64,000 nt of DNA from NCBI RefSeq assembly GCF_003334355.1, contig NZ_QOWP01000002.1. One strand, 5' to 3'. Below, piece after piece: positions 61,101 to 64,000 of this stretch (position 1 is its first letter; each line of letters opens with the position of its first letter). The position numbers were made by a program. This stretch comes from Escherichia coli (lineage in GTDB: Bacteria; Pseudomonadota; Gammaproteobacteria; Enterobacterales; Enterobacteriaceae).

Positions 61101-64000
61101 CTAAAGAGTAAATGTAGATTTAATTAATATATTGACAGAAGAAAGGTTATCTTAAGGACATCCTTAAAAAATACGGAATAAGTATTTAGAAAAAAATAGA
61201 AAGTATATCAATAATGAATATCAACAGCTTAAAAAACAAACAATGAACATATAATGCGATTGGCATTTATCCACTTTTGACAATATAATATATAAACACT
61301 ATAGCCAGAATTTAATCAAGTTTCAATTACATCCTGCCTGATTATTCAACTCTATTTTCTCTATTATCTGTATTAATAAATGACAATGAGTGTCAAACAG
61401 ACATTATTCATTTCAACATGTTACTTTGGGCAAAATCAAGATACGCGCAGAAAAATAATTTCCGAATGAAATTAGAAAGTGTTTTATTTATATATGGGGA
61501 GAGTCTTCGATAGTAGTGAGGTTGACAGATATCCGCTGCCTGATGAGCAATTATGCCCAATGAATCTACCTCATTGGGCATAATTTGGAACTCATCAGAT
61601 AGCTTTTGCCATCTTCAGATTACACGGGCTCATCTGCCAGTTGAATGTGCCGTTTCCGCTTTCATCAAGCGTTACGCTGGCAATGGCCGAGGTGGTAAAC
61701 ATAGGCGGCGTTTCGCCCGGACATAACTCGGCAACCAGATACCCGACTAACGGTAAGTGAGAGATCACCAGTACCGAAGCAACACCTTCATTGGTCAACG
61801 CCTGCAAATAGGCACTGACCAGACCAACATCGCCGCAGGGCGTTAACTCCGGCAGAACTTCTGCACTGGAAGGCAGGTTCAGACAATCCCCTACTTCTTC
61901 CAGTGTTTGCTCGGCTCGCAGGAACGGGCTCACCAGAACGCGTTCGATTTCCACTTTTTGACCTTTCAGCCAGTTCGCCATCAGGCGAGATTCGTCACAA
62001 CCATTAGTGGTCAGAGGACGAACCGAATCACTGGCGGCATCGAGGGCTGCGTCGCCGTGACGCATGATAAAAACTTGCATATTGCACCGCTTTTGTTAAC
62101 CAGATTCGCCCATTTTCTTTCATCTGAAACCAGAGAAAGAAAACGGTGGCCGGCATTGTGCCTTATCCATTCACCGAATGAAACGCTGTTTTTTACCTCA
62201 ATGGCGTAAGTATAGTCAATATGCGTTTACATTTTGACCAACACTCCGCCATTCAGCGCGGATTCATATAGCTTTGACCTTCTTATTGCAGGTCAGTTGC
62301 AGTTGTTTTCCAAAAACTTTCCCCACGCGCGCCCATCTCGACCAAACGCTCGCAAGGGGTAAAACGGGAACCATACTGCGTGGCCAGTCGTTGCATTATT
62401 GCAACCACTTCGCCCGCGCCGAGAGAATCGATATAGCGGAACGGTCCACCGAGAAATGGCGGAAAACCAATGCCAAATACCGCACCAATATCCCCGTCAC
62501 GCACGCTACGGATAACCTGCTCATCAACACAACGTACTGCTTCATTCAGCATCAACATCACACACCGTTCAGCAACCTGCGGTGCGGAGAGTCGCCCCTG
62601 CCCTTGTGCGCCAATGAGCGGGTAAATGGCAGGATCGACCTGTTTTTTGCTTTTACGCCCTTTCTGACCATAAAGATAGAAACCCCGACCATTTTTTCTG
62701 CCTTTGCGATCGTCGTTCAAAATTGAAGAAACAACATTTGCAGGCGCGCTAAAACGTTCTCCATAAGTGGCTTCCAGTACAGGAATAATTTTAGTCCCGG
62801 TGTCGATTCCTACCTCATCCAAAAGTTGGATTGGGCCTACCGGAAAACCAAATTTCACTAGCGCAGCATCAATGTGCTCTACCCGTTCACCTTCGGTCAG
62901 CATGCGGATAGCTTCATTAATGTAAGGCGCTAAGATGCGATTGACGTAAAACCCGGCTTTGTCACGCACGACAATGGGAGTTTTGCCCTGTTTTTTCGCC
63001 AGTTTTACCGTAGTGGCGATGGTTTGCGCCGATGTACCCGCATGAGGAATAATCTCTACCAGCGGCATTTTTTCCACCGGACTGAAGAAATGCAGGCCAA
63101 TAACTTGCTCAGGTCGCGCGGCGTGAGCGGCGATATCACCAATCGGTAAAGATGACGTGTTCGAAGCAAAAATGGTATGAGCGGCGCAATTTTGCTCCAC
63201 TTCCGCCACCATCTGTTGTTTTAATTCGAGATTTTCAAACACCGCTTCAATAATCAGATCGCGATGGGCAAAGCCGCGATAGTCCGTCGTTCCGGAGATT
63301 AATGCCAGCTGTTTGTCACGTTCGCTGGCTTTGAGATGACGACGGCGAACTTTGCCCTCCAGCTGATCCCAACTGTACTTCAGCGCATGATTTATGCCCT
63401 GCGGGTTGATATCTTTAATTCTGACCGGAAGCCCCGCTTTACAAGCAGTGACATAAGCAATACCGCCGCCCATCAAGCCACCACCTAAAATCCCCACGCT
63501 GTTTAATGGCGCAGGCGGCGCATCACTGCCGGGATCTTTCTTCACGTCCGTACTGGCAAAAAAGATACTACGCAGAGCCTGCGATTGCGGCGTCATCGCC
63601 AGTTCGCCAAACGCCCGTGCTTCAGCGTCATAGCCACTGCTGGTGCCCTGCGCTAATCCCGTTTCGACAACCTCCAGGATGCGTTCTGTCGCCGGATAGT
63701 TACCTTGAGTTTTGTGTTCTGTTTTCTTGCCGACCATTTTGAACAGCAACGCACGACCTAACGGCCCCGCCAGAATACGCTCGCGTACAGGTAGAGGGCG
63801 GGAAGATGGACGATCCTGCTTTACCAGCTCAACAGCGGCTTCCAGCAAAATGGAGTGCGGAACGACGTCATCCACCAGCCCCAGCTTTAACGCCTGTTTC
63901 GCCCGAAGTTGTTTTCCGGTGAGGATCATCTCTAATGCTGTGCTGACGCCTATGAGACGCGGTAAACGCTGGGTGCCGCCTGAACCGGGTAACAATCCAA

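What the first reader, a model, noticed from the sequence alone, without database searches (positions are those of the whole stretch)
61540..61598. Long nested palindrome overlapping the sixA stop codon
A roughly 59-bp two-tier inverted repeat (8-bp outer arms, 13-bp perfect inner arms, 7-nt loop) begins inside the sixA stop codon. It lacks a U-tract, so it is not a canonical intrinsic terminator, and it does not match the REP consensus seen elsewhere in the window. It may act as an RNA stabiliser, an insulator between sixA and the yfc promoter region, or a protein-binding site.
Basis: seen in the sequence. Interest (0 to 1): 0.35.

Follow-up and report, generated by a model that had tools for sequence, protein, structure and literature searches.

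The report
U-less 3′-end hairpin of sixA mRNA
The palindrome is the stem-loop where the E. coli sixA messenger RNA ends: a version of the gene's old terminator hairpin that has lost its U-tail, so termination probably relies on the Rho factor just downstream while the hairpin protects the RNA end. This is a known and fairly ordinary kind of element.

Summary
The palindrome is real. It has 15-nt perfect inner arms (not 13), a 7-nt loop and 8-nt outer arms that cover the sixA stop. It is the only perfect hairpin repeat of that size in the 64 kb, and its RNA fold has z = -7.25. It is single-copy, always at sixA, and present in 3100 of 5426 complete E. coli genomes.

All other Escherichia alleles carry a homologous GCCC/GGGC-core hairpin at the same place. 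Pairing is kept through compensatory changes. Most alleles, including E. albertii, follow it with a T-tract, which makes them canonical intrinsic terminators. In the window (K-12-type) allele the T-tract is replaced by sequence complementary to the stop-codon region.

Published K-12 3'-end maps place the sixA mRNA 3' end at window 61544, 5 nt past the inner stem. A C-rich, G-poor tract follows, and a bicyclomycin-sensitive Rho termination region peaks 78 nt further on.

Best reading: a 3'-end-protecting stem-loop of a Rho-terminated transcript (the Dar & Sorek 2018 class), derived from an intrinsic terminator. A protein-binding site and a REP or mobile element are not supported. The outer tier is probably incidental. 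Low interest. The one modest new point is the within-species polymorphism between alleles with and without a U-tract.

The parts
61595..62080 (-). sixA coding sequence (phosphohistidine phosphatase); stop codon TGA at 61595-61597
   Evidence: ORF list; RefSeq annotation of identical sequence in many genomes
61591..61598 (-). 5' (ascending) outer arm in the RNA, CUGAUGAG: last base of the Ile codon, UGA stop, then UGAG
   Evidence: About one third of carriers have CUGAUGUG, a U-U mismatch with no compensating change (4 of 4 sampled from the 98.5% identity class)
61586..61590 (-). asymmetric internal loop UUCCA between the outer and inner stems (a single G, 61548, on the 3' side)
   Evidence: fold; sequence
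61571..61585 (-). 5' inner arm AAUUAUGCCCAAUGA
   Evidence: 15 nt, 100% complementary; contains the GCCC core that is invariant in all Escherichia alleles
61564..61570 (-). loop GGUAGAU (5 nt remain unpaired in the RNA fold after one extra closing pair)
61549..61563 (-). 3' inner arm UCAUUGGGCAUAAUU
   Evidence: invariant GGGC core; an IS1 is inserted here in strain EC09
61540..61547 (-). 3' (descending) outer arm CUCAUCAG. It occupies the position of the T-tract in the other alleles
   Evidence: gap-free alignment with the O157-type allele; T-tail scores
61539..61550 (-). mapped steady-state 3' end of sixA mRNA in K-12: peak MG1655 2456271-2456282, dominant 2456276 = window 61544 (RNA ends ...GGGCAUAAUUGCUCA-3')
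   Evidence: TRS supplementary data, PMC10687069; coordinate mapping verified, substitutions only; register checked against thrL (my reading)
61460..61539 (-). C-rich, G-poor tract immediately 3' of the hairpin (C 21, G 9 in 80 nt), a candidate rut site. The published Rho termination region peaks at MG1655 2456198 = window 61466
   Evidence: only 0.11% of 80-nt windows in the 64 kb are as extreme; Adams et al. 2021 supplementary file 2
61298..61326 (-). context: sigma-70 promoter of yfcV, TTGAAA-17-TATAGT, about 215 nt downstream of the hairpin, in an H-NS-bound 'promoter island'
   Evidence: scan; Shimada et al. 2014, PMC3946193; Panyukov & Ozoline 2013, PMC3661553

Best explanation
The palindrome encodes the 3'-terminal stem-loop of the sixA mRNA. 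It descends from the ancestral sixA intrinsic terminator hairpin (GCCC/GGGC core). In this lineage the U-tract was replaced, so the stem became longer and the proximal U residues were lost. I infer that RNA polymerase mostly reads through the hairpin, that Rho loads on the C-rich, G-poor RNA just downstream, and that it terminates within roughly the next 80-150 nt, before the yfcV promoter. 3'-to-5' exonucleases (PNPase, RNase II) would then trim the tail back until the 16-bp inner stem blocks them. That would leave the observed end 5 nt past the inner stem and would protect sixA mRNA from decay. The outer tier is nibbled away in the mature RNA and is polymorphic, so it is probably incidental. 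Shown: the hairpin, its conservation, the missing U-tract, the mapped 3' end, the C>G tract, and a bicyclomycin-sensitive region downstream. Inferred: that Rho terminates sixA transcripts specifically, and that the end is made by trimming.
For: Structure: -35.8 kcal/mol, z -7.25. Position and homology: every sampled E. coli allele and the Escherichia outgroups have a hairpin directly after the sixA stop. The 11-bp core is 91.8% paired across 10 distinct alleles, with 13 cells changed on both sides; 0/500 shuffles reach either value and slid controls give 22-43%. U-tract: E. albertii, st4069-type and 2017-02-2CC alleles have 6-7 U in the 8 nt after the stem (T-scores 3.0, 3.6 and 1.7), against 2 U and 0.43 for the window allele. 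Two A-U to U-A flips at the stem base keep the pairing while removing the proximal U residues. In vivo 3' end: a 'Primary' sixA terminus at 2456275-2456278 in three K-12 datasets, signal 0.75-0.84, p down to 4e-85, 3'UTR 52 nt, no nearby TSS. Those signals are lower than for the neighbouring canonical terminators yfcZ and fadL (0.92-1.0), so some RNA extends downstream. Rho: a minus-strand Rho termination region at 2456198, Rho score 9.3, p 1e-41, lies at the end of a C21/G9 tract. Class description: Dar & Sorek 2018.
Against: With bicyclomycin the downstream read count (738) exceeds the upstream count (148). Part of the Rho signal must therefore come from transcripts that start inside the H-NS-silenced spacer (the yfcV promoter or the promoter island) rather than from sixA read-through. 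Adams et al.'s curated Term-seq list has no 3' end at this site. The 3' end is 5 nt past the inner stem, which is also roughly compatible with hairpin-induced termination. I could not obtain a direct Rho-dependence score or exonuclease-mutant data for sixA, because the Dar & Sorek and SEnd-seq tables are not held. Compensatory changes in a DNA palindrome can also arise mechanically by template switching, so covariation overstates selection on RNA structure.
Confidence: 0.6

Rival explanations
1. The hairpin is itself a non-canonical intrinsic terminator, possibly assisted by NusA or NusG. The long stable stem plus the A/U-rich stem base and the GCUCAU tail would release RNA polymerase 5-8 nt after the inner stem without a true U-tract. 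Rho would act only as a backstop.
For: The dominant 3' end lies 5 nt after the inner stem, within a narrow peak. Homologous alleles are canonical terminators. The stem is the most stable of all alleles, -21.4 kcal/mol for the inner stem alone. Dar & Sorek discuss such weak-intrinsic-plus-Rho transition states.
Against: Only 2 U in the 8 nt after the stem, T-score 0.43, and no hit in the terminator scan. The TRS signal of 0.75-0.84 shows RNA continuing downstream. A C-rich tract and a Rho-sensitive region lie downstream. From general knowledge, E. coli RNA polymerase terminates poorly at hairpins without U-tracts.
Confidence: 0.22
2. The 26-bp interrupted duplex is an RNase III processing site. 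The mapped 3' end inside the outer stem would then be a cleavage product, which would destabilise sixA mRNA rather than protect it.
For: The total paired length of about 26 bp, with one internal loop, is within the range of RNase III substrates. The 3' end falls inside double-stranded RNA, the outer descending arm.
Against: The TRS authors found that only about 5% of 3' termini overlap RNase III sites. The 3'UTR/CDS read ratio is ordinary and no small-RNA signature is flagged. The outer stem carries a mismatch in about a third of carriers. The RNase III site tables could not be consulted.
Confidence: 0.05
3. It acts at the DNA level, as an operator for a dimeric regulator of the yfc fimbrial operon or as a cruciform or recombination site at the edge of the variable yfc region.
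For: A perfect 15-bp inverted repeat with a 7-bp spacer looks like an operator. Homology between E. coli lineages breaks at the sixA stop, next to the element.
Against: The arm sequences differ between lineages while the pairing is preserved. That fits a structure, not a sequence-specific site. The element lies more than 215 bp upstream of the yfcV promoter. It is transcribed and marks an RNA 3' end. No second copy exists anywhere in E. coli genomes or plasmids.
Confidence: 0.03
4. It is a repeated or mobile element: REP/BIME, a MITE or an IS remnant.
For: Nested inverted repeats resemble terminal inverted repeats.
Against: It occurs once per genome, always at sixA and never on plasmids. There is no Rfam hit, no REP consensus, and no target-site duplication. 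Alleles lacking it have a homologous hairpin rather than an empty site.
Confidence: 0.01

Closest known systems
[quoted passage not shown] 2012)
   Same: A stable stem-loop immediately upstream of a precise steady-state 3' end, no U-rich tail, C>G enrichment just downstream, and a bicyclomycin-sensitive region downstream.
   Different: Rho dependence and exonuclease trimming have not been shown for sixA specifically. The stem is unusually long and perfect (16 + about 8-10 bp), and its outer tier overlaps the stop codon.
Canonical intrinsic (Rho-independent) terminator, including the sixA terminators of other E. coli lineages and E. albertii
   Same: It is a homologous hairpin with the same GCCC/GGGC core and the same position after the stop. 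Its stem energy is comparable or greater.
   Different: The U-tract is missing: 2 U of 8 and T-score 0.43, against 3.0-3.6. The simple terminator scan finds nothing.
REP/BIME elements acting as 3'-end mRNA stabilisers
   Same: A transcribed extragenic palindrome that blocks 3' exonucleases.
   Different: It is single-copy, has an unrelated sequence, and is not a dispersed family.
Quasipalindrome template-switch mutation products (Ripley 1982; Lovett laboratory work; recalled from memory, not checked here)
   Same: The 3' side reads as the reverse complement of the 5' side, which includes the coding-constrained stop region, with TGGAA replaced by G. This clustered change perfected and extended the palindrome at the expense of the T-tract.
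   Different: This concerns origin only and is an inference. The whole spacer is highly diverged between alleles, so ordinary substitution plus selection cannot be excluded.

Membership tests
Intrinsic (Rho-independent) terminator | Stable GC-containing stem-loop downstream of the gene | tested here: met
   Inner stem -21.4 kcal/mol, whole structure -35.8 kcal/mol, z -7.25
Intrinsic (Rho-independent) terminator | U-rich tract of 7-8 nt immediately 3' of the stem | tested here: not met
   Tail GCUCAUCA has 2 U in 8; T-tail score 0.43 against 3.0-3.6 for the canonical sixA alleles; no hit in the scan
Intrinsic (Rho-independent) terminator | Termination independent of Rho, shown in vitro or as insensitivity to bicyclomycin | not testable with these tools
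   Published data show a Rho-sensitive region 78 nt downstream, but it is confounded by transcription starting within the spacer
Protective 3' stem-loop of a Rho-dependent transcript (Dar & Sorek class) | Steady-state RNA 3' end immediately downstream of a stable stem-loop | tested here: met
   TRS termini at 2456275-2456278 = window 61543-61546, 5 nt after the inner stem, in three datasets
Protective 3' stem-loop of a Rho-dependent transcript (Dar & Sorek class) | No uridine-rich tail and no upstream A-tract | tested here: met
   (AAAAAA in the O157 type became AAAUUA)
Protective 3' stem-loop of a Rho-dependent transcript (Dar & Sorek class) | C-over-G enrichment (rut-like) just downstream | tested here: met
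   C/G 17/6 (19/6 in MG1655) in the 60 nt after the hairpin; C21/G9 in 80 nt, as extreme as only 0.11% of windows
Protective 3' stem-loop of a Rho-dependent transcript (Dar & Sorek class) | Read-through increases when Rho is inhibited | tested here: inconclusive
   Adams et al. supplementary file 2: position 2456198(-), Rho score 9.3, p 1e-41. However, +BCM downstream reads exceed upstream reads, so promoters within the spacer contribute
Protective 3' stem-loop of a Rho-dependent transcript (Dar & Sorek class) | 3'-extended transcripts accumulate in pnp or rnb mutants | not testable with these tools
   The Dar & Sorek supplementary tables are not held
REP/BIME | Dispersed multi-copy family with the REP consensus | tested here: not met
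   One copy per genome, only at sixA; no second copy of the arm in the window
MITE or IS remnant | Multiple copies, terminal inverted repeats with a target-site duplication, and empty sites in other strains | tested here: not met
   Single copy; strains without it have a homologous hairpin, not an empty site
RNase III substrate | In vivo cleavage that depends on rnc | not testable with these tools
   The duplex length is adequate, but the cleavage-site tables are not held

The most novel reading that the evidence does not exclude
Within one species, the same sixA 3' hairpin exists in two functional states. U-tract alleles (the st4069/E2348-69 type, O157 type and others; apparently ancestral, as in E. 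albertii) would be intrinsic terminators. The extended, U-less palindrome allele is found in 57% of complete E. coli genomes, K-12 included, and would hand termination over to Rho. If so, this is a natural population-level example of the intrinsic-to-Rho terminator switch that Dar & Sorek predicted. It may have been created in one step by a quasipalindrome template switch that copied the stop-codon side over the T-tract. It would make insulation of the H-NS-silenced yfc fimbrial operon from sixA transcription depend on Rho in those lineages only.
Probability: 0.35. Interest if true: 0.4.

Novelty: new member of a known kind. Interest (0 to 1): 0.2.

Why it matters
The main value is correct annotation. 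The palindrome is the sixA mRNA 3' end, not a new regulatory device. Its allelic series offers a ready-made natural experiment: one conserved hairpin with strong, weak or absent U-tracts in different lineages. It could be used to study how terminators move between intrinsic and Rho-dependent modes. It could also show whether that move changes read-through into a neighbouring, horizontally acquired fimbrial operon; from memory, not checked here, yfcV is used as a marker of uropathogenic strains.

Tried and rejected
- Rfam at a permissive E-value gave only chance hits (mir-1255 at E = 6).
- The consensus terminator scan found nothing in 60900-62200.
- A repeat-family or mobile-element reading was rejected on copy number.
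- My automatic "best hairpin" heuristic over the 80 outgroup loci over-extended stems and hid the core terminators. I read the raw downstream sequences instead.
- Hairpins downstream of sixA in Citrobacter, Enterobacter, Salmonella and others are not alignable with the Escherichia one, because sixA there converges on another gene. They were not used for covariation.
- Adams et al.'s curated Term-seq list has no 3' end at the hairpin.
- Supplementary tables are not held for Dar & Sorek 2018, Choe et al. 2022, the Rend-seq annotation paper and Altuvia et al. 2018 on RNase III. The SEnd-seq paper is not held at all.
- No held paper combines sixA with Term-seq or RIL-seq, so nothing supports a 3'UTR-derived sRNA. 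The TRS 3'UTR/CDS analysis does not flag sixA as an outlier and lists no nearby TSS.
- The two mirrored 57-aa ORFs starting MPNE on both strands are artefacts of the palindrome (ATGCCCAATGA reads the same on both strands) and were not pursued.

Full report
**Observation.** The reported palindrome exists at the stated coordinates. The inner arms are 61549-61563 and 61571-61585. They are 15 nt long (not 13), perfectly complementary and 7 nt apart. The outer arms are 61540-61547 and 61591-61598 and match 8 of 8. sixA is on the minus strand at 61595..62080. In the RNA the structure therefore starts with CUGAUGAG, which is the last base of the final Ile codon, the UGA stop, and then UGAG. The 67-nt minus-strand RNA folds at -35.8 kcal/mol, against -13.7 +/- 3.1 for dinucleotide shuffles (z -7.25; 0 of 200 as good). 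It is the only perfect hairpin-type inverted repeat of 15 nt or more in the 64-kb window. No T-tract terminator is detected, no Rfam family matches, and there is no other copy of the arm in the window.

**Distribution.** The 67-bp element is present in 3100 of 5426 complete E. coli genomes. It is essentially single-copy, always at the sixA stop and never on plasmids, so it is not REP or a mobile element. MG1655 and BL21 carry it unchanged. In the remaining genomes, homology to the window stops at about 61599-61605, which is at the sixA stop codon. The sixA-yfcV spacer beyond that point is highly diverged between lineages.

**What the other alleles have.** Every sampled lineage has a hairpin directly after the sixA stop. 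The alleles, written on the sixA-sense strand, are:

- st4069 / E2348-69 type (634 genomes): AAGGCCCG...CGGGCCTT followed by TATTTTTTT.
- O157 type (429 genomes): AAATGCCCGATGTA...TACATCGGGCATTT followed by GTCTTTTTG.
- 2017-02-2CC type: TGCCCGGT...ACCGGGCA followed by AATTTTTT.
- FDAARGOS_1303 type: the same stem followed by the weaker tail GTTTCTCC.

The three counted alleles total 4163 genomes. The other roughly 1260 were not typed individually and were only sampled.

Among outgroups fetched through SixA, E. albertii has ATGCCCGATAT...ATATCGGGCAT followed by TTCTGTTTT, a textbook intrinsic terminator. E. whittamii and an Escherichia clade strain carry the O157-like core.

Ten distinct Escherichia alleles align on a common 11-bp stem with an invariant GCCC/GGGC core. 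Of all cells, 91.8% are paired, and 13 cells have a change on both sides. Neither value is reached in any of 500 shuffles, and slid controls give 22-43% pairing. The window palindrome is therefore an allele of the sixA terminator hairpin, not an insertion.

**What changed in this allele.** The window and O157-type alleles align without gaps. A G:C pair in the core became A:U. The two A-U pairs directly under AUGCCC/GGGCAU flipped to U-A, which lengthens the perfect stem but removes the proximal U residues. The rest of the T-tract (UGUCUUUUUG) reads UGCUCAUCAG instead, and this is complementary to the stop-codon region. On one common scale the window allele has the most stable stem (-21.4 kcal/mol for the inner stem alone) and the poorest tail of all alleles: 2 U in 8 and a T-score of 0.43, against 3.0 for E. 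albertii and 3.6 for the st4069 type. The 3' side reads as the reverse complement of the 5' side with TGGAA replaced by G. That pattern would fit a quasipalindrome template-switch origin, but this is inference only.

**The outer tier.** All four genomes sampled from the 98.5%-identity class (1065 of the 3100 carriers) have CUGAUGUG. This puts an uncompensated U-U mismatch in the outer stem, while the inner stem is unchanged. The mature RNA also ends inside the outer descending arm (next paragraph).

**Experimental data from K-12.** MG1655 coordinates map to the window by a constant offset of 2,394,732. There are only substitutions, no indels, across 2455950-2456840. The TRS study (PMC10687069) lists a "Primary" sixA 3' terminus on the minus strand with peak 2456271-2456282 and dominant position 2456276. 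Its signal is 0.83 and its p-values are 6e-39, 4e-52 and 4e-85. Two further datasets give dominant positions of 2456275 (signal 0.75) and 2456278 (signal 0.84). The study reports a maximum U-tract of 2, a 52-nt 3'UTR, no nearby TSS and an unremarkable 3'UTR/CDS read ratio.

I checked the register of that table against the thrL attenuator, where the dominant position 307 is the sixth U. From that, the sixA RNA ends ...GGGCAUAAUUGCUCA-3' at window 61544, 5 nt beyond the inner stem. The signal is defined as L/(L+D). Values of 0.75-0.84 mean that some RNA 3' ends are still found in the next 67 nt. The neighbouring canonical terminators of yfcZ and fadL score 0.92-1.0.

Adams et al. 2021 (PMC7815308) do not list a Term-seq 3' end here. 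Their comparison with and without bicyclomycin reports a minus-strand Rho termination region at 2456198 (window 61466). The Rho score is 9.3 and p is 1e-41, with read counts of 136/73 without the drug and 148/738 with it.

The 80 nt between the hairpin and that point are C-rich and G-poor (C 21, G 9). Only 0.11% of 80-nt windows in the 64 kb are as extreme. The 60-nt C/G ratio is 17/6 (19/6 in MG1655), against 9/11 in the T7-tract allele.

**Mechanism.** These features match the class described by Dar & Sorek 2018. In that class, Rho-dependent transcripts have precise steady-state 3' ends immediately after stable stem-loops that lack U-tracts. The stem-loops block PNPase and RNase II, and rut-like C>G sequence lies just downstream. 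Those authors also predicted that terminators could switch between intrinsic and Rho-dependent modes simply by changing U content. My best explanation (confidence about 0.6) has three steps. First, polymerase mostly reads through the sixA hairpin. Second, Rho terminates in or after the C-rich tract, upstream of the yfcV promoter. Third, exonucleases trim back to the inner stem, which then stabilises sixA mRNA.

**Caveats.** The drug-treated downstream count exceeds the upstream count. Part of the Rho signal must therefore come from transcripts that start in the spacer. The spacer contains the constitutive sigma-70 yfcV promoter TTGAAA-17-TATAGT at window 61326-61298 and is an H-NS-associated "promoter island". 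No sixA-specific Rho or exonuclease data could be retrieved. Compensatory changes in a DNA palindrome can also arise mechanically by template switching, so the covariation result overstates selection on RNA structure. The view that the U-tract state is ancestral rests on a few outgroup genomes at a locus that recombines.

**Rivals.**
- Hairpin-induced termination without a U-tract, possibly helped by NusA or NusG (about 0.22). The position of the 3' end is compatible, but the tail is very poor and RNA continues downstream.
- An RNase III site (about 0.05).
- A DNA operator or cruciform (about 0.03). This is disfavoured because the arm sequences differ between lineages while the pairing is kept, and because the site lies more than 215 bp from the promoter.
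- A repeat or mobile element (about 0.01). This is refuted by copy number.

**Novelty and verdict.** The kind is known, and the K-12 3' terminus is already tabulated, although nobody has discussed it. What this analysis adds is that the palindrome is a U-less derivative of a conserved terminator, and that E. coli is polymorphic for alleles with and without a U-tract at this one hairpin. That is a modest, testable natural example of terminator-mode switching. It might make insulation of the yfc fimbrial operon depend on Rho in lineages such as K-12. Interest is low (0.2). I classify it as a new member of a known kind.

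Noticed in passing
L093 (E. coli EC09, NZ_CM169492.1 207469-208115), equivalent to window ~61556: An IS1A element is inserted inside the descending inner arm of the palindrome (...TCATTGGG | GTGATGCTGCCAACTTACTGAT...). It removes the 3' half of the hairpin from the sixA transcript in that strain.
   Followed up: partly
window 60911-61598 (sixA-yfcV spacer): The spacer and the yfcV region are hypervariable between E. coli lineages. Homology to the window breaks exactly at the sixA stop in about 2300 of 5426 genomes, and O157-type genomes match only 57% of the query in two pieces. The literature describes the spacer as an H-NS-bound 'promoter island'.
   Followed up: partly
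L028-L035, L037, L038, L040, L041, L046, L047, L056, L060, L064, L083 (Enterobacter, Leclercia, Lelliottia, Silvania), about 1981-2050: In these genera sixA converges on a gene ending ...EEWQPPELP* (probably smrB). The short spacer forms its own two-tier hairpin whose outer arm CUGACG.../...UGUCAG also overlaps the sixA UGA stop and which has no T-tract. It is an independent analogue of the architecture seen here.
   Followed up: no
window 62101 and 62197 (MG1655 2456833 and 2456929, minus strand): Adams et al. 2021 list two 'orphan' Term-seq 3' ends in the fadJ-sixA spacer, 21 and 117 nt upstream of the sixA start codon. They could be the fadJ terminator or premature termination in the sixA 5' UTR.
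   Followed up: no
window 61245 (MG1655 2455977, plus strand): Adams et al. 2021 also report a plus-strand (antisense) Rho termination region inside the spacer, with Rho score 3.9 and p 4e-06. This suggests bidirectional spurious transcription in the promoter island that Rho silences.
   Followed up: no
window 61408-61581 (-) and 61553-61726 (+): Two 57-aa ORFs on opposite strands both start MPNE, because ATGCCCAATGA occurs in both arms of the palindrome. They are mirror artefacts, not genes.
   Followed up: yes
window 10808-10853: An 18-nt inverted repeat, AAAAAAAAGCCGCTGGGG / CCCCAGCGGCTCGTTTTT, flanked by an A-tract and a T-tract. It looks like a bidirectional intrinsic terminator and is a useful contrast to the U-less sixA hairpin.
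   Followed up: no
L012 (E. coli SCPM-O-B-8794), about 1984-2050: A further sixA hairpin allele, AAGGCCCAATAGC...GCTATCGGGCCTT, followed by ATAAATTGCG (3 U in 8, T-score 0.80). This is a second lineage in which the T-tract is degenerate.
   Followed up: partly
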